A program made the position numbers and the translations under genes. A stretch of 4,613 bases of DNA, from the IMG/VR virus record IMGVR_UViG_2703718783_000010; one strand, 5' to 3'. Positions within the stretch are counted from its first letter, which is position 1, and each line of letters starts with the position of its first letter. Below the pieces are notes generated by a model. It did no database searches. It saw nothing but the letters and a program-made list of their open reading frames with translations, and was not told the origin of the DNA. Of the stretch, positions 1-4,613 are shown one piece after another. Origin of the DNA: a virus (lineage: Duplodnaviria; Heunggongvirae; Uroviricota; Caudoviricetes).

Positions 1-879
1 GTCCACACCTTATCCGACGGCCGGTCCTGCACGAACGTCAGCGTCTGCCGGTTCCATACCGGCATACAGCGCATCGCAGAGCAGAAATCACTGAGCACAT
101 CCCACGCCTTGCGCTGTGTGGTCAGGTACGCATTACAGGTGATGCGCGGCTCCGTGCCGCCAAAACCGTCCGGCACTGACTGGTCGCAGTACTGGCCGAT
201 GACATACAGCGCCCATTTATCCACATCCGCCGCACCAAGACGTTTCCCCATGCCGTAGCGCGGGTGGGTCAGCATATCCCACAGACACCAGGCCATGTTG
301 TTGCTGTATGCCGGTTTCAACGTTCCGTCCCAGATACCGCTGTATTGCCGCGTCTGCGGGTTATAATTCGACGGCACCTGCAGAATACGCCCGCGCAGAT
401 GATAATTACGGCTCACCTGCTGGNNNNNNNNNNNNNNNNNNNNNNNNNNNNNNNNNNNNNNNNNCCAGCAGGCGGACTTCCGACGGATTCCTGTCACCCT
501 TTGAGGTGGTTTCCACCAGTGCCTGCACACCGAAGGTAAAGCGCAGACGGTCGATGTTTGCCGACGTGATGGTCCGGGTGATCGGCGTGTCGTATTTCAC
601 TTCCGTACCCAGCACCGTCTCGGATCCGGAGGATTCAAATCCCTCCGGCGGTGTCTGTTCCTGCTCACCTGCCCGGAACACCACCGTGACACCAGAGATG
701 TTGGTATTCCCCTCACTGTCCAGCACCGGCGTACTGTTCAGCAGCACGCTTTTTAACCCATCCACCGGACCTTCAATCGGCCCTTCGCTGATGGCATCGA
801 TCACACTCAGCAACTGCGTGGATTTCAGGTTGTCCTTCGCTTCGCGCGGGGTATGCCCCTTACTGCTACCTTTACCCAT
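1..879 (-). CDS. J: Tail tip / host-specificity protein J (central tail fibre), N-terminal part. Start codon at 879..877; the gene continues past position 1 (3'-partial) and is interrupted by the N-run at 424..464.
   Basis: Minus-strand translation from 879 reads MGKGSSKGHTPREAKDNLKSTQLLSVIDAISEGPIEGPVDGLKSVLLNSTPVLD...NIDRLRFTFGVQALVETTSKGDRNPSEVRLL, which I recognise as the lambda gpJ N-terminus. Below the gap (from 422 downward) the translation resumes as SQQVSRNYHLRGRILQVPSNYNPQTRQYSGIWDGT..., also recognisably gpJ. GGAG lies 8 nt upstream of the ATG (plus 888..891). The frame is 0 mod 3 above the gap and 2 mod 3 below it, so the 41 N do not preserve frame. Confidence 0.93.
424..464. other. 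Run of 41 N: assembly gap or masked segment inside the J coding region
   Basis: Literal n characters in the sequence. The J reading frame is recognisable on both sides but shifted by one base, and roughly 90 residues of lambda-J-like sequence between ...EVRLL and SQQVSR... are unaccounted for. Confidence 0.99.
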
Positions 880-888
880 TCCTCATGC

Positions 889-921
889 TCCATAAACGAC
901 AAAACCGCCCGCAGGCGGTTT
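889..921 (-). terminator. Stem-loop with downstream U-rich tract in the I-J intergenic spacer (weak intrinsic-terminator-like or RNA-stabilising hairpin)
   Basis: On the gene (minus) strand the spacer reads AAACCGCC-TGCG-GGCGGTTTT-GTCGTTTATGGAG. This is a perfect 8-bp stem (plus 902..909 pairing with 914..921) with a 4-nt loop, followed by a T-rich stretch that runs into the J Shine-Dalgarno. Seen directly; function is inferred. Confidence 0.35.
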
Positions 922-939
922 CACATAAAACATTTTGCA

Positions 940-1581
940 TCAGCGACCAATCACCACAACCTGACCACCATCCCCTTCGTCTGCCGTGCTGATCTCCTGA
1001 GAAACCACCCGCGACCCCACACGCATTTCACCGTACAGAACAGGCAAAACATTGCCCTGAGCAACCATGTTATCCAGTGATGAGAAATACGTGTTCTGCT
1101 TACCGTTATCCGTGCTGGTCGTTGTTGCGGTACTCGCTTTCGGTGCCAGCATCTGTGCAACACCGCCAAGCGTCATCGCCGCACCCATTGAAAAGAGAAT
1201 GTCACTGAAAGCGATACTGATCCCCGGCATCCAGATTGCCGTAGCAATCAACGCCGCACCCAGCACCGCCTGAAACACACCGCCACTTTTTGCTCCCGCA
1301 AGACGCGGCACGATGTGGATCACTGCACCATTTGCCAGCGGCTCATTAAGACGGGATGATAATTCGGTTTCGCCTGCATCACGCCCGGCAATCCGCACCT
1401 GATACCAGCCGTCGCTCAGTTTCTGACGAAACGCCGGGAGCTGTGTGGCCAGTGCGCGGATGGCTTCAGCCCCCGTTTTCACACGAAGGTCGATGCGGCG
1501 GCCAAATCGTTGCAAATCCCCGTAAAGGCAGATGCGCGCCATGCCCGGTGACGCCAGAGGGAGTGTGTGCGTCGCTGCCAT
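940..1581 (-). CDS. I: Tail tip assembly protein I, 213 aa: N-terminal ubiquitin-like (beta-grasp) domain ending near a Gly-Gly, then a hydrophobic Gly/Ala-rich segment and a conserved C-terminus
   Basis: Translation MAATHTLPLASPGMARICLYGDLQRFGRRIDLRVKTGAEAIRALATQLPAFRQKLSDGWYQVRIAGRD...TDNGKQNTYFSSLDNMVAQGNVLPVLYGEMRVGSRVVSQEISTADEGDGGQVVVIGR matches lambda gpI at both ends. Stop TGA at 942..940. Its first 103 nt overlap the 3' end of K in another frame, as in lambda. Confidence 0.9.
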   Translation of the reverse strand: MAATHTLPLASPGMARICLYGDLQRFGRRIDLRVKTGAEAIRALATQLPAFRQKLSDGWYQVRIAGRDAGETELSSRLNEPLANGAVIHIVPRLAGAKSGGVFQAVLGAALIATAIWMPGISIAFSDILFSMGAAMTLGGVAQMLAPKASTATTTSTDNGKQNTYFSSLDNMVAQGNVLPVLYGEMRVGSRVVSQEISTADEGDGGQVVVIGR

Positions 1582-2222
1582 TTGTCGGTATACCTCTCTC
1601 GTTTGCTCAGTTGTTCAGGAATATGGTGCAGCAGCTCGCCGTCACCACAGTAAATGGCGGCATGATTCGGCACCGATGAACCAAAACAGCACTGCAGCAC
1701 ATCGCCAGGCTGCGCCTCTGTCAGTGCGACACGGTAAAAACCCGTCGCCTCCATATTGTCAAGATAGAGATTCTGACCGTGACGCCACCAGTCATCCTCC
1801 CGGTGAAAATCCGGCAGTTCAGTCCCCGCCAGATGATAAGCGTCCCGGAACAGCGCGTAACAGTCCGTCACCCCGTGCTCAAAGCGCCGCCCGGTGAGAT
1901 GCGGCACACAGCGGAACTTATGAATCGCCCCCCGGCAGACCAGCCACCACGGCAAATCACTCTGCACCTGCAGCCGCCGGTCAGCCTCACTCAGCCAGGG
2001 CAGACCACTGGGGTGGCTGTGGACCAGCGCCACAATCTCACCCTGCATTTCTGCCTGCAGCCAGTCCTCCGGAGCCATCCGGAAATAATCCTCCGGCTCA
2101 CCGGAAATATTCACGCAGGGAAAATAGCTTTCCCCCTCCGGCGTTCTCACCACGAAGCCGCACGACTCCGCTGGCGCACATCGCCGGGCGTGCGCCAGAA
2201 TCGCTGATTCTGTCTCTGTCAT
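1479..2222 (-). CDS. K: Tail tip assembly protein K, 247 aa: N-terminal JAMM/MPN-type metalloprotease motif plus C-terminal NlpC/P60-type Cys/His peptidase domain
   Basis: Translation MTETESAILAHARRCAPAESCGFVVRTPEGESYFPCVNISGEPEDYFRMAPEDWLQAEMQGEIVALVHSHPSGLPWLSEADRR... matches lambda gpK. HSHPSGLPWLSEAD fits the JAMM consensus HxHx7Sx2D (H68, H70, S78, D81), with candidate upstream Glu residues (E19, E29, E31). NlpC/P60-like candidates are C121 (DCYALF) and H187/H199 (HAAIYCGDGELLHH). The start at 2222..2220 lies 4 nt after the L stop. The track's longer ORF (start 2297) would overlap the L C-terminus by 71 nt and is not preferred. Confidence 0.88.
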   Translation of the reverse strand: MTETESAILAHARRCAPAESCGFVVRTPEGESYFPCVNISGEPEDYFRMAPEDWLQAEMQGEIVALVHSHPSGLPWLSEADRRLQVQSDLPWWLVCRGAIHKFRCVPHLTGRRFEHGVTDCYALFRDAYHLAGTELPDFHREDDWWRHGQNLYLDNMEATGFYRVALTEAQPGDVLQCCFGSSVPNHAAIYCGDGELLHHIPEQLSKRERYTDKWQRRTHSLWRHRAWRASAFTGICNDLAAASTFV

Positions 2223-2226
2223 GGGA

Positions 2227-2925
2227 TTACTGCGAAAGTTTGTTAATGGAAAGGAAGCCGCCAAAGTTGCCGACGTTATTGCGGAACTTACAGCCACTCA
2301 GGCATTTGCTGCATTTATCCTTCGTGATATCGGACGTCGGCTGGTCATATTCATCCGCGACCGCCGGACCGCTATAACCGCACTCATCACCGCGATAGGT
2401 CCAGGTGCAGGTGTTGGCCAGCATGATGCGCCCCGGAAAAACAGCACCATCCGTTTCCGTCGGCGTGGACAACACAAAGGAGGCACTGACCGCGCTCAGT
2501 TCGCTGCACTGCTCGACGCGCCAGCGGCTGATCACCTCCTGCTCCGGATCGGCATCACTGTTTCCGTTGACGAAATTCACCGCATCCAGAAAACGGGCGT
2601 AAACCTTACGCCTGACCACCGTTCCGCCGACCAGACTCTGCAGATCTTCCACCATCCCGGTGACCATACCGTACAGGTTAGAAACCGTCAGCGTGGGGCG
2701 CGTACTGGTGCCTTTGCCATTCAGTTCAAAACCGCTCCCCTGAATGGGATACGCCTGATACTGTCGCCCCTGCCAGGTGACCGGCTCACCTTTTTCGTTC
2801 TGCTCATTACAGAAAAAATAACGTTCTCCACCGACCTCTGTCAGATCGATTTCCCAGAGCACCACGCTGGCCGACTGCTCCGCACGGGTGCATTCATTCA
2901 GTGTTTCCTGTTGGATATCCTGCAT
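2227..2925 (-). CDS. L: Minor tail protein L, 232 aa, with C-terminal cysteine cluster (putative Fe-S site)
   Basis: Translation MQDIQQETLNECTRAEQSASVVLWEIDLTEVGGERYFFCNEQNEKGEPVTWQGRQYQAYPIQGSGFELNGKGTSTRPTLTVSNLYGMV... matches lambda gpL. Start ATG 2925..2923 overlaps the M stop TGA 2927..2925 (ATGA). GGTGG lies 7 nt upstream of the ATG. Stop TAA at 2229..2227. Confidence 0.95.
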   Translation of the reverse strand: MQDIQQETLNECTRAEQSASVVLWEIDLTEVGGERYFFCNEQNEKGEPVTWQGRQYQAYPIQGSGFELNGKGTSTRPTLTVSNLYGMVTGMVEDLQSLVGGTVVRRKVYARFLDAVNFVNGNSDADPEQEVISRWRVEQCSELSAVSASFVLSTPTETDGAVFPGRIMLANTCTWTYRGDECGYSGPAVADEYDQPTSDITKDKCSKCLSGCKFRNNVGNFGGFLSINKLSQ

Positions 2926-3254
2926 CAGTTCACCACCTGTTCAAACTCTGCGCTGAACTCAACACGCAGCATACTGACCCGCGACGACCATTTTGCGCAG
3001 GTCACCTTTATCTGCCGCCACTCATAAGGCGGCGTCCACAGAAAGGCTTTCCAGCCCCCGTGCTCAGCCAGAAACGACTCCAGCGCTGTGGCCTCCCAAC
3101 GGGGAACAGAAAGCGTCACACTGTACGTTTTCAGGTCAGCGTTCAGCCCGGCAGGCGCTCGCTGGGAATAGCCATCACCAAAGCGCACCTTTCTTACGGA
3201 AGGGGCCGAAGCCACATCCATACCGGGTTTCACTTTCCAGCGGAAGGTTTTCAT
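2925..3254 (-). CDS. M: Minor tail protein M, 109 aa
   Basis: Translation MKTFRWKVKPGMDVASAPSVRKVRFGDGYSQRAPAGLNADLKTYSVTLSVPRWEATALESFLAEHGGWKAFLWTPPYEWRQIKVTCAKWSSRVSMLRVEFSAEFEQVVN matches lambda gpM. Start ATG 3254..3252 overlaps the H stop TGA 3253..3251 (ATGA). GGAGG lies 6 nt upstream (plus 3262..3266). Confidence 0.95.
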   Translation of the reverse strand: MKTFRWKVKPGMDVASAPSVRKVRFGDGYSQRAPAGLNADLKTYSVTLSVPRWEATALESFLAEHGGWKAFLWTPPYEWRQIKVTCAKWSSRVSMLRVEFSAEFEQVVN

Positions 3255-4613
3255 CGTCCACCTCCGGAGAACAGACCACCATCGCGCATCTGCCCGGTCA
3301 CAACATCCATTGCCGCCTTACGGGCTACGTCATAAACAGCCTTCAGTGCCTGTGGCCCTATCTGACCGTTCGTGCCGTCGTTGTTAATCACCACATGGTT
3401 ATTCTGCTCAAACGTCCCGGACGCCTGCGACCGGCTGTCTGCCATGCTGCCCGGTGTACCGACATAACCGCCGGTGGCATAGCCGCGCATCAGCCGGTAG
3501 AGATTCCCCACGCCAATCCGGCTGGTTGCCTCCTTCGTGAAGACAAACTCACCACGGTGAACAATCCCCGCTGGCTCATATTTGCCGCCGGTTCCCGTAA
3601 ATCCCCCGGTCGCAAAATGGAATTTCGCCGCAGCGGCCTGAATGGCTGTACCACCTGACGCGGATGCTCCACCACTGGCAGCACCGCCAATGGCGCTGCC
3701 GATACTCCCGACAATCCCCACCATTGCCTGCTTAAGCAGAATTTCTGTCATCATGGACAGCACGGAACGGGTGAAGCTGCGCCAGTTCTGTTCACTGCCG
3801 GTCAGCATCGCCGCCATATTCTGTGCAATACCATCAAAGGTCTGCGTGGCAGCACTTTTAACCTGCGACATACTGTCCGTGGCGCTCTCTTCCCACTCAC
3901 TCCAGCCGGACTTCAGGCCTGCCATCCAGCTCCCGCGAAGCTGGTCTTCAGCCGCCCAGGTCTTTTTCTGCTCTGACATGACGTTATTCAGCGCCAGCGG
4001 ATTATCGCCATACTGTTCCTTCAGACGCTGTTCCGTGGCTTCCCGCGCTGCCTGCCGGTCAGTCAGCCCCCGGCTTTTCGCATCAATGGCGGCCCGTTTT
4101 GCCCGTTGCTGCTGTGCGAATTTATCCGCCTGCTGCGCCAGCGCATTCAGGTGCTCCTGATACGTGACCTTATCGCCAAGTGCAGCCAGCTGGCGCTTGT
4201 ACTCCAGCGTCTCGTCTTTATGCGCCAGCAGGGATTTCTCCTGTGCAGACAGCTGGCGACGTTGCGCCGCCTCCTCCAGTACCGCGAACTGATTCTCCGC
4301 CTTCCACAAATCCCGGCGCTGCTGGCTGATTTTCTCATTCGCTCCGGCATGCTTCTCCAGCGTCCGGAGTTCTGCCTGAAGCGTCAGCAGGGCAGCATGA
4401 GCACTGTCTTCCTGACGATCGCCCGCAGACACCTTCACGCCGGACTGCTTCGGCTTTTTCAGCGTAGCTTCATAATCCTTTTTCGCTGCCGCCATCAGCG
4501 TGTTGTAATCTGCCTGCAGGATTTTCCCGTCTTTCAGTGCCTTATTCAGTTCTTCCTGACGGGAGGTATATTTCTCCAGCGGCGTTTGCAGGCGTTCGTA
4601 AGCCTTCTGCGCC
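3251..4613 (-). CDS. H: Tail tape measure protein H, C-terminal ~453 codons (5'-partial; the gene begins beyond the right edge)
   Basis: The minus-strand frame is open from the window edge (AQKAYERLQTPLEKYTSRQEELNKALKDGKILQADYNTLMAAAKKDYEATLKK...) through to ...MDVVTGQMRDGGLFSGGGR and stop TGA 3253..3251. It has a long Ala/Gln/Lys/Glu-rich helical region, a Gly/Ala/Ser-rich tract and the characteristic gpH C-terminus. The Met at 4495 in the ORF track is internal, not the true start. Confidence 0.95.
   Translation of the reverse strand, partial: AQKAYERLQTPLEKYTSRQEELNKALKDGKILQADYNTLMAAAKKDYEATLKKPKQSGVKVSAGDRQEDSAHAALLTLQAELRTLEKHAGANEKISQQRRDLWKAENQFAVLEEAAQRRQLSAQEKSLLAHKDETLEYKRQLAALGDKVTYQEHLNALAQQADKFAQQQRAKRAAIDAKSRGLTDRQAAREATEQRLKEQYGDNPLALNNVMSEQKKTWAAEDQLRGSWMAGLKSGWSEWEESATDSMSQVKSAATQTFDGIAQNMAAMLTGSEQNWRSFTRSVLSMMTEILLKQAMVGIVGSIGSAIGGAASGGASASGGTAIQAAAAKFHFATGGFTGTGGKYEPAGIVHRGEFVFTKEATSRIGVGNLYRLMRGYATGGYVGTPGSMADSRSQASGTFEQNNHVVINNDGTNGQIGPQALKAVYDVARKAAMDVVTGQMRDGGLFSGGGR

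What the first reader, a model, noticed from the sequence alone, without database searches (positions are those of the whole stretch)
1479..2222. K encodes a two-peptidase protein (JAMM/MPN + NlpC/P60) next to ubiquitin-like I: a phage ubiquitin-like processing pair
The sequence shows a complete JAMM signature (HSHPSGLPWLSEAD = HxHx7Sx2D, with several Glu residues upstream) and a downstream Cys/His pair compatible with an NlpC/P60 papain-like fold. The overlapping next gene I has a Gly-Gly at residues 100-101 at the likely end of its beta-grasp domain. Established comparative work predicts that gpK-type JAB domains process gpI-type ubiquitin-like domains. The full 247-aa start at MTETES is needed to include the upstream Glu, so older 199-aa models starting at M49 (MAPEDWLQ...) would lose part of the active site.
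Basis: partly seen in the sequence, partly recalled or inferred. Interest (0 to 1): 0.4.

Follow-up and report, generated by a model that had tools for sequence, protein, structure and literature searches.

The report
Lambda-type tail protease K and gpI
This is the well-known lambda-type tail-tip assembly gene K, a two-protease protein that trims a ubiquitin-like cap off the neighbouring tail-plug protein I; the reading is correct but was predicted in 2006 and has since been reported as experimentally confirmed, so it is ordinary.

Summary
Window 2222..1479 (minus strand) encodes a 247-aa homologue of lambda gpK (227/247 identical), inside an H-M-L-K-I-J tail-tip module. Pfam finds Prok-JAB (residues 4-98) and NlpC/P60 (111-224), both above threshold. 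An AlphaFold model matches JAMM deubiquitinases and NlpC/P60 endopeptidases. Both catalytic sets (E19/H68/H70/S78/D81; C121/H187/H199) are kept in 97-99 of 99 homologues at 33-59% identity. A gpI homologue follows K in every intact locus examined. I add three refinements. (1) The 199-aa lambda K model comes from one G missing in J02459/NC_001416; other lambda records carry it and have the 247-aa frame open. (2) The conserved glycine ending I's Ub-like domain is G96 (G96-A97 invariant), not the Gly-Gly at 100-101. (3) I's family-conserved start is M14, so residue numbers depend on the start chosen. Novelty: already known. Interest: low.

The parts
1479..2222 (-). Gene K, 247 aa (28.3 kDa), tail-tip assembly protein with two peptidase domains
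   Evidence: ORF. 227/247 identical to the long form of lambda K. Synteny L-K-I-J. Long ORF intact in 79/80 related viral loci.
1929..2213 (-). JAB/MPN+ (JAMM) metalloprotease domain, residues 4-98
   Evidence: Pfam PF14464, 9.4e-14, 51.7 bits. PDB 2KKS match over residues 7-105. Foldseek top hit 5ld9/5lda JAMM1.
2166..2168 (-). Catalytic Glu E19 (PAESCG), lost in the 199-aa model
   Evidence: 97/99 conserved. Invariant in 34/34 close homologues.
1980..2021 (-). JAMM motif HSHPSGLPWLSEAD (H68, H70, S78, D81)
   Evidence: Read from the sequence. H68 99/99, H70 98/99, S/T78 98/99, D81 99/99.
1551..1892 (-). NlpC/P60 (C40) papain-like domain, residues 111-224; triad C121 (1860-1862), H187 (1662-1664), H199 (1626-1628)
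   Evidence: Pfam PF00877, 1.7e-12. C121 98/99, H187 98/99, H199 97/99. Foldseek hits to MepS, LytE and others.
2079..2222 (-). Codons 1-48 of K, the N-terminal extension absent from 199-aa models
   Evidence: pN/pS 0.29. Homologues have a median of 20 residues before the catalytic Glu. Pfam JAB match starts at residue 4.
2085..2093 (-). GAGGATTAT: site homologous to the single G missing from the lambda reference (between 14266 and 14267 of NC_001416)
   Evidence: Alignment A1. With-G allele in 45 fetched loci, without-G only in NC_001416 among them.
2222..2229 (-). L stop (TAA), 4 nt (TCCC), then K start (ATG). No Shine-Dalgarno sequence, so translational coupling to L is inferred
   Evidence: Sequence. 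The coupling is an inference.
940..1581 (-). Gene I (213 aa from M1; 200 aa from the conserved M14 at 1542)
   Evidence: ORF. E = 3.5e-105 to lambda gpI of 8IYK. M14 invariant 51/51.
1291..1542 (-). Ubiquitin-like (ThiS/MoaD-like beta-grasp) domain of I, residues 14-97
   Evidence: Pfam Lambda_tail_I, 4e-24. AF2 secondary structure b-b-a-b-b-a-b ending at P92 with pLDDT about 58-68. Top Foldseek hits are SUMO/ubiquitin but only at E 0.04-0.5. hhalign to MoaD E 1e-3, probability 21%.
1291..1296 (-). Invariant G96-A97, predicted C-terminus of the Ub-like domain and candidate scissile region
   Evidence: 51/51 and 22/22 for G96. Aligns to MoaD G80-G81. The cleavage position itself is inferred.
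1279..1284 (-).
   Evidence: Present in the window. G100 32/51 and 15/22, G101 45/51 and 20/22.
943..1212 (-). C-terminal structural ('plug') part of I, equivalent to lambda gpI 134-223 seen in virions
   Evidence: 9E7M and 8IYK matches. PMC10721106 and PMC12617516.

Best explanation
K is the lambda-type tail-tip assembly factor gpK, a non-structural cytoplasmic enzyme with an N-terminal JAMM/MPN+ zinc metalloprotease and a C-terminal NlpC/P60 cysteine peptidase. Its partner, encoded by the overlapping next gene, is gpI. gpI has an N-terminal ThiS/MoaD-like ubiquitin-like domain, a Gly/Ala-rich hydrophobic linker, and a C-terminal domain that forms the trimeric plug in the tail-tip lumen and holds the tape-measure C-terminus. 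During initiator assembly (J, then I, L, K) the Ub-like domain acts as a removable cap. Once I is seated in the J/L complex, the JAB domain of K cuts it off at or just after the invariant G96-A97, which licenses the next assembly step, and K then leaves. Shown here: domain identities, active-site conservation, K-I synteny, and the correct 247-aa reading frame. Taken from the literature: K is absent from virions, only the I C-terminus is present in virions, and cleavage by K is reported in a meeting summary. Inferred: the exact scissile bond, the checkpoint role, the role of the NlpC/P60 domain, and translational coupling of K to L.
For: Pfam JAB plus NlpC/P60 above threshold. AF2 model with pLDDT 84.8 matches JAMM1 (solved with SAMP2), Rpn11, CSN5, AMSH and MepS/LytE. 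Catalytic residues conserved 97-99/99 and 33/33 in intact close homologues. An I homologue lies directly downstream of K in all intact divergent loci. H89..P92-x3-G96-A97 is invariant, and MoaD's C-terminus aligns there. gpI 134/135-223 is the only part seen in virions and gpK is not detected by MS. The single virion gpI peptide (9.87% coverage) fits only residues 202-223. The 2006 prediction is. In F-pyocin the PA0640 N-terminus is present in stalled tips and absent from mature particles, and deleting PA0639 gives tip-less tubes.
Against: No cleavage data were generated here. The only statement that K is the protease is a conference summary without data or a mapped site. The I model is low confidence (mean pLDDT 46.9) and its beta-grasp matches are not significant. 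Iyer et al. report phages whose K has only NlpC/P60, so the JAB domain may not always be the cutter. Recombinant PA0640 loses its N-terminus in E. coli without its K homologue. The equally conserved NlpC/P60 site is left without a defined substrate.
Confidence: 0.85

Rival explanations
1. The NlpC/P60 domain, not the JAB domain, cuts I (or the two make successive cuts), and the JAB domain mainly binds the Ub-like domain.
For: The NlpC/P60 triad is as conserved as the JAMM site. Iyer et al. note K variants with only NlpC/P60 next to I, and suggest the papain-like domain might also process I. PHROGs include separate JAB-only and NlpC-only families.
Against: The full JAMM catalytic set, not just a binding surface, is conserved 97-99/99. 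The closest structural match is an active Ubl-cleaving JAMM1. The meeting report refers to gpK's 'deubiquitinating domain'.
Confidence: 0.1
2. The JAB domain is primarily an anti-defence deubiquitinase that strips host Bil-type ubiquitin-like conjugates from the central tail fibre J.
For: Hor et al. raise this as a speculation for DUB domains in siphophage tail-assembly proteins. K acts at the J-containing initiator.
Against: K is required for tail assembly in hosts without such systems (also classical genetics, from my own knowledge). A cognate Ub-like substrate, I, is encoded next to K in every intact locus. There are no PADLOC hits. It could be a secondary role.
Confidence: 0.05
3. The NlpC/P60 domain is a virion-borne peptidoglycan hydrolase used for cell-wall penetration at infection.
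For: Structural similarity to D,L-endopeptidases MepS and LytE. Weak hit to TIGR02219 'phage cell wall peptidase'.
Against: gpK is not detected in virions by MS or cryo-EM. The TIGR02219 score is 20.1 against a cutoff of 81.9. No signal peptide or membrane segment is evident in the sequence.
Confidence: 0.03
4. K is a catalytically dead chaperone (pseudoenzyme) that only scaffolds the tip.
For: K is called an 'assembly protein', and no activity has been published in full.
Against: Both active sites are under strong conservation across 33-59% identity. pN/pS is 0.12-0.29.
Confidence: 0.02

Closest known systems
Bacteriophage lambda gpK (tail tip assembly protein K; TAPK of Iyer et al. 2006)
   Same: 227/247 identical to the long form of lambda K. 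Same L-K-I-J position, same JAB plus NlpC/P60 architecture, same overlap with I.
   Different: The window is a lambdoid variant, about 92-95% identical in DNA to listed phages and 98.9% to E. coli prophages. It has HSHPSG where relatives have HSHPGG or HSHPDG. The reference lambda entry shows only 199 aa because of a missing base.
Bacteriophage lambda gpI (tail tip assembly / plug protein; PDB 8IYK, 9E7M)
   Same: E = 3.5e-105 over the full length. Ub-like domain, hydrophobic linker and C-terminal plug domain.
   Different: The hydrophobic Gly/Ala linker is 10 residues shorter (213 vs 223 aa).
Archaeal and eukaryotic JAMM deubiquitinases (P. furiosus JAMM1 with SAMP2, Rpn11, CSN5, AMSH)
   Same: MPN fold and the E...HxHx7Sx2D zinc site. 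A substrate with a ubiquitin-like beta-grasp domain ending in glycine.
   Different: No E1/E2 or conjugation machinery nearby. The predicted reaction is a linear peptide-bond cut within one polypeptide (Ubl-linker-plug), not isopeptide removal. The domain is fused to an NlpC/P60 domain.
P. aeruginosa F-pyocin PA0639/PA0640
   Same: Homologues of K and I. The N-terminal part of PA0640 is removed during maturation, and deleting PA0639 abolishes tip assembly.
   Different: A tailocin, not a phage. The authors did not identify the protease.

Membership tests
JAMM/MPN+ metalloprotease (Pfam Prok-JAB PF14464) | Profile match above the curated threshold | tested here: met
   51.7 bits vs cutoff 25, residues 4-98.
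JAMM/MPN+ metalloprotease (Pfam Prok-JAB PF14464) | Complete E...HxHx7Sx2D motif, conserved among homologues | tested here: met
   E19, H68, H70, S78, D81 present. Conserved 97-99 of 99 at 33-59% identity.
JAMM/MPN+ metalloprotease (Pfam Prok-JAB PF14464) | MPN fold | tested here: met
   AF2 pLDDT 84.8. Foldseek 5ld9_A E 6.2e-5, TM 0.65 on target, plus Rpn11/CSN5/AMSH.
JAMM/MPN+ metalloprotease (Pfam Prok-JAB PF14464) | Zinc-dependent cleavage after a Ub-like C-terminal glycine | not testable with these tools
   Only a conference summary reports cleavage of gpI by gpK.
NlpC/P60 (MEROPS C40, Pfam PF00877) | Profile match above threshold and papain-like fold | tested here: met
   47.7 bits vs cutoff 23, residues 111-224. 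Foldseek hits to MepS, LytE and T. thermophilus NlpC/P60.
NlpC/P60 (MEROPS C40, Pfam PF00877) | Cys-His-His/polar catalytic triad conserved | tested here: met
   C121 98/99, H187 98/99, H199 97/99.
NlpC/P60 (MEROPS C40, Pfam PF00877) | Peptidoglycan (gamma-D-Glu-mDAP) endopeptidase activity | not testable with these tools
   The substrate is unknown. K is absent from virions. TIGR02219 scores 20.1 vs cutoff 81.9.
Lambda gpK / TAPK tail-tip assembly family | Position between L and I/J in a lambdoid tail module, with high identity to lambda K | tested here: met
   (227/247 identical). phrog_30 at 1.4e-159.
Ubiquitin-like beta-grasp (ThiS/MoaD-like), N-terminal domain of gpI | Lambda_tail_I profile match | tested here: met
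   PF06805, 85.3 bits vs cutoff 23.8, residues 14-97.
Ubiquitin-like beta-grasp (ThiS/MoaD-like), N-terminal domain of gpI | Beta-grasp fold | tested here: inconclusive
   AF2 domain pLDDT is only about 58-68 with the right order of elements. Eight of the top 10 Foldseek hits are SUMO/ubiquitin-family proteins, but at E 0.04-0.31. hhalign to MoaD is end to end at E 1e-3 but probability 21%. The PDB profile hits to MoaD and Ta0895 are at E about 0.65-1.
Ubiquitin-like beta-grasp (ThiS/MoaD-like), N-terminal domain of gpI | Conserved glycine at the C-terminus of the domain | tested here: met
G96 51/51 and 22/22.
E1/E2-dependent ubiquitin-like conjugation systems (Bil, CBASS Cap2/Cap3 type) | E1 and/or E2 genes adjacent to the Ubl and the JAB | tested here: not met
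   The window holds only H, M, L, K, I and J. No PADLOC hits. This is a processing pair, not a conjugation system.

The most novel reading that the evidence does not exclude
The NlpC/P60 domain of K, whose triad is as conserved as the JAMM site yet has no assigned substrate, may be the unidentified protease that cleaves the tape-measure protein gpH to gpH* in its Gly-rich C-terminal region. Alternatively it may make a second cut in I's Gly-rich linker. Either way K would be a dual-specificity maturation protease controlling two checkpoints of tail assembly.
Probability: 0.12. Interest if true: 0.5.

Novelty: already known. Interest (0 to 1): 0.15.

Why it matters
The biology is established: a viral ubiquitin-like domain and JAMM protease pair acts as an assembly checkpoint. 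It was predicted in 2006, is now backed by virion structures and MS, and has been reported as experimentally shown. The practical value here is for annotation. The canonical lambda record (J02459/NC_001416) lacks one G in K. As a result the reference protein is a 199-aa fragment that loses the catalytic Glu, falls below Pfam's JAB threshold, and is named only 'C40 family peptidase'. That truncated model has been copied into newer records (DE3, lambda imm21) and appears in 199-aa clusters totalling about 11,000 member sequences. Anyone mapping the cleavage site should look first at the invariant G96-A97 before the Gly-Gly at 100-101.

Tried and rejected
- **Programmed -1 frameshift in K:** I considered this as the explanation for lambda's out-of-frame N-terminus. 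I rejected it because five other lambda or lambda-derived records, and lambda-type DNA contaminating unrelated assemblies, all carry the extra G. There is also no X XXY YYZ slippery site there.
- **Programmed K-I fusion through the overlap** (I is in the -1 frame of K): rejected. The K-I fusion proteins in the database are clusters of 1-2 sequences (P0018, P0030, P0105), and the overlap has no slippery heptamer.
- **GTG start at 2297 (272 aa):** rejected. It overlaps L, and homologues have a median of only 20 residues before the catalytic Glu.
- **Locus searches that failed or found little:** the A4 alignment had no searchable stretch in viral contigs, and neither did A5 in genome contigs. Single distant K seeds in viral contigs gave 0-3 loci each.
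- **NCBIfam:** only sub-threshold hits (desampylase 29.6 vs 130).
- **PADLOC:** no hits.
- **Literature search for a published note on the K indel:** nothing found in the held library, and the Casjens and Hendrix review was not available.
- **Terminator scan:** it did not flag the I-J hairpin.
- **pN/pS for I's start:** it could not choose between M1 and M14, because codons 2-13 barely vary in either frame.
Full report
**What is in the window.** All listed genes lie on the minus strand and form a lambdoid tail-tip module:
- H, C-terminal part: 4495..3251
- M: 3254..2925
- L: 2925..2227
- K: 2222..1479
- I: 1581..940
- J, N-terminus: from 879, interrupted by a run of N at 424-464

Pfam confirms each gene: Tape_meas_lam_C, Phage_min_tail, Phage_tail_L, Prok-JAB plus NLPC_P60, Lambda_tail_I and FNIII-A_GpJ. 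The DNA is 91-95% identical to many lambdoid phages. The K-I stretch (window 940-2230) is 98.9% identical to prophages of E. coli, and a match to it occurs in 4,399 of 5,426 complete E. coli genomes, with a median of 3 copies per genome.

**Checking the observation.**
- K starts MTETES at 2222 and is 247 aa.
- HSHPSGLPWLSEAD is at residues 68-81.
- The catalytic Glu is E19 in PAESCG. It aligns to PNEACG of the JAB protein 2KKS.
- Prok-JAB (residues 4-98, 51.7 bits) and NLPC_P60 (residues 111-224, 47.7 bits) both exceed Pfam's thresholds.
- An AlphaFold2 model (pLDDT 84.8) matches P. furiosus JAMM1 (solved alone and with the ubiquitin-like SAMP2), Rpn11, CSN5 and AMSH in the N-terminal half. 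It matches MepS, LytE and other NlpC/P60 enzymes in the C-terminal half.

The test was that the catalytic motifs would not be conserved. An exhaustive search found 2,731 cluster representatives at E<=1e-3. In 99 full-length homologues at 33-59% identity the counts are:

| Residue | Conserved |
|---|---|
| E19 | 97/99 |
| H68 | 99/99 |
| H70 | 98/99 |
| S/T78 | 98/99 |
| D81 | 99/99 |
| C121 | 98/99 |
| H187 | 98/99 |
| H199 | 97/99 |

Among 34 closer sequences the only deviant is scrambled across the whole JAMM segment, which suggests a frameshifted gene call. The test does not refute the finding. Both sites appear to be functional.

**The start-codon claim.** The 247-aa start is right, for four reasons:
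- The JAB profile match begins at residue 4.
- Homologues have a median of 20 residues before the catalytic Glu.
- The long ORF is intact in 79 of 80 related viral loci.
- Codons 2-48 show purifying selection, with pN/pS 0.29 against 0.12 for codons 49-213.

Truncating to 199 aa drops Prok-JAB to 21.6 bits (window) and 23.3 bits (lambda), below the cutoff of 25. This explains the RefSeq name 'C40 family peptidase' for lambda K.

In J02459/NC_001416 the upstream ATG (14133) is out of frame with annotated K (14276..14875). The reference reads GAGGC-TATTTCC. Five other lambda or lambda-derived records read GAGGCGTATTTCC: PV340536, KT232076, LC730321 (48,503 bp), DE3 and lambda imm21. The window's lineage reads GAGGATTATTTCC at the same site and likewise keeps the frame open. 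Among all fetched loci the with-G form occurs in 45 and the without-G form only in NC_001416. In the phage-collection search only J02459, NC_001416, OR474059 and OR974322 matched without a gap. The 45 include lambda-type contigs at low coverage in assemblies of unrelated bacteria, which look like independent re-sequencings of lambda DNA. So real lambda almost certainly encodes a 247-aa gpK, and the 199-aa protein comes from a one-base omission in the 1982 sequence. A private mutation in the sequenced stock is the less likely alternative. Newer records are inconsistent: 247 aa in PV340536, 211 aa in KT232076, and still 199 aa in DE3 and imm21 despite the extra G. Four 199-aa clusters with 2,207, 1,684, 2,159 and 4,936 member sequences exist in the protein collection.

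**Translation signals (inference from the sequence).** K's ATG lies 4 nt after L's TAA and has no Shine-Dalgarno sequence, which suggests coupling to L. M49 has GGAGG 11 nt upstream. That probably attracts gene callers and could in principle act as an internal start.

**Gene I and the Gly-Gly.**
- I matches lambda gpI over its full length (E = 3.5e-105). Its hydrophobic linker is 10 residues shorter than lambda's.
- G100-G101 exist if numbering starts at the first ATG.
- In two independent divergent sets the invariant feature is H89-x-x-P92-x-x-x-G96-A97. One set is 22 I proteins from loci with K at 43-76% identity. The other is 51 proteins from the lambda-like and Pasteurellaceae clades.
- G96 is kept in 22/22 and 51/51, and A97 in 51/51.
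- G100 is kept in 15/22 and 32/51. G101 is kept in 20/22 and 45/51. Some homologues have no Gly at all at 100-101.
- The I model is weak overall (pLDDT 46.9). Its N-terminal domain (pLDDT about 58-68) has the beta-grasp order of elements, with the last strand ending at P92 and confidence falling below 50 for residues 94-103.
- Foldseek's best hits are SUMO, ubiquitin and NEDD8-type proteins, but only at E 0.04-0.5.
- A profile comparison aligns the domain end to end with E. coli MoaD and pairs IHIVPRLAG96 with VAFFPPVTG80 (E 1e-3, probability 21%).

I therefore place the equivalent of the Ub/MoaD C-terminal glycine at G96(-A97), four residues after the last strand. The spacing matches Gly76 after strand 5 in ubiquitin (my own knowledge). 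This fits the single 'highly conserved glycine' described by Iyer et al. The true scissile bond remains untested.

**I's start.** M14 is invariant (51/51), and distant homologues begin there with no upstream extension. Databases use at least four different starts for I, giving 223/213, 200, 191 and 190 aa. Codon analysis could not separate M1 from M14. I-frame codons 14-34 have pN/pS 0.026, but codons 2-13 barely vary in either frame.

**Pairing of K and I.** An I homologue lies immediately downstream of K, usually overlapping its end, in every intact divergent locus examined. These come from Proteus, Providencia, Xenorhabdus, Sodalis, Pasteurellaceae, Oceanisphaera, Edwardsiella, Citrobacter and an IMG/VR phage. 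No E1 or E2 genes are present.

**What is already known.**
- Iyer, Burroughs and Aravind (2006, PMC1779556) described TAPK as JAB plus NlpC/P60 and TAPI as a Ub-like domain, a Gly-rich linker and a C-terminal domain. They predicted that the JAB releases the Ub-like domain by cutting at its C-terminal glycine.
- Cryo-EM of lambda resolves only gpI 135-223 (PMC10721106) or 134-222 (PMC12617516), as a trimeric plug holding the gpH C-terminus. gpK is absent from virions by MS.
- The virion MS table lists one gpI peptide at 9.87% coverage. The only fully tryptic peptide of that size is residues 202-223. This is consistent with loss of the Ub-like domain, though weakly so.
- A 2025 conference report states that the Davidson lab showed gpK cleaves the Ub-like domain from gpI, and only after gpI has joined other tip proteins (PMC12908700).
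- In F-pyocin the gpI homologue PA0640 keeps its N-terminal region in stalled tips and lacks it in mature particles. Deleting the gpK homologue PA0639 gives tip-less tubes (bioRxiv 10.64898/2026.02.24.707460).

**Mechanism and rivals.** The best-supported model (confidence 0.85) has four steps: K is a transient assembly enzyme; its JAMM domain removes I's Ub-like cap at about G96-A97 once I is seated in the J/L initiator; this licenses tape-measure and tube attachment; K then leaves. The rivals are:
- The NlpC/P60 domain does the cutting (0.10).
- K is an anti-Bil deubiquitinase, a speculation in Hor et al. (0.05).
- K is a virion cell-wall hydrolase, contradicted by its absence from virions (0.03).
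- K is a non-catalytic chaperone, contradicted by active-site conservation (0.02).

The NlpC/P60 substrate is the real open point. The protease that converts gpH to gpH* is stated to be unknown, so K's second domain is a candidate. That is speculation.

**Verdict.** The novelty class is 'already known'. The useful additions are the reference-sequence error behind the 199-aa lambda K, the G96-A97 motif as the conserved end of the Ub-like domain in place of the Gly-Gly at 100-101, and M14 as I's conserved start.

Noticed in passing
L095-L108, L115, L116, L118, L122, L129, L141, L146, L147 (genome contigs): DNA about 92% identical to the window (the level of lambda itself), many with the lambda-type with-G K allele, sits on short or roughly 1x-coverage contigs in assemblies labelled Neobacillus, Pseudoxanthomonas, Paenibacillus, Bradyrhizobium, Streptomyces, Enterococcus, Shewanella and others. 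This looks like lambda DNA contamination of public assemblies.
   Followed up: partly
L001:1260-1279 (NC_001416 14259-14278): The lambda reference lacks one G that is present in the other lambda-type copies fetched, which splits K's reading frame. Two further records (OR474059, OR974322) also lack it and may be reference-guided assemblies.
   Followed up: yes
L090-L092: 2387-3202, 3193-4050, 4011-4706: In one IMG/VR clade a full K (JAB plus NlpC/P60) is followed by a second 286-aa ORF that has only a JAB domain plus about 180 aa of unknown sequence. A divergent I follows, which keeps the P-x-x-x-G-A motif but has no Pfam hit.
   Followed up: partly
window 895-930, minus strand (I-J spacer): A 10-bp GC-rich hairpin (AAACCGCC-UGCG-GGCGGUUU) is followed by UGUCGUUUAU. 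Folding gives dG -22.8 kcal/mol, z -2.4. It looks like a terminator or an mRNA-stabilising stem, but the consensus scan did not flag it.
   Followed up: partly
window 1479-1581 (K/I overlap): K-frame synonymous sites are almost frozen (pS 0.002, pN/pS about 13), while the I frame shows pN/pS 0.026 for codons 14-34. Selection on I's first beta-strands therefore dominates K's low-confidence C-terminal tail (K pLDDT below 50 for residues 241-247).
   Followed up: yes
window 940-1581; L148; L004; L005: Gene I is annotated with several different starts in public records: M1 (223/213 aa), M14 (200 aa), a start at codon 23 (191 aa in PGAP) and a GTG at V34 (190 aa in lambda). The last two would truncate the first strand(s) of the Ub-like domain.
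   Followed up: partly
window 424-464: A run of 41 N lies inside the N-terminal part of gene J. It is a masked stretch or an assembly gap.
   Followed up: no
window 2079-2096, minus strand: GGAGG lies 11 nt upstream of the internal ATG (M49). This probably explains why gene callers pick the 199-aa model, and it might support a genuine internal start giving a product without the catalytic Glu (199-aa clusters).
   Followed up: no
window 3251-3700, minus strand (H C-terminus): The tape-measure C-terminal region is very Gly-rich (GGAASGGASASGG...GGFTGTGGKYEPAG). Lambda gpH is cleaved to gpH* in the corresponding region by a protease that the literature calls unknown.
   Followed up: no
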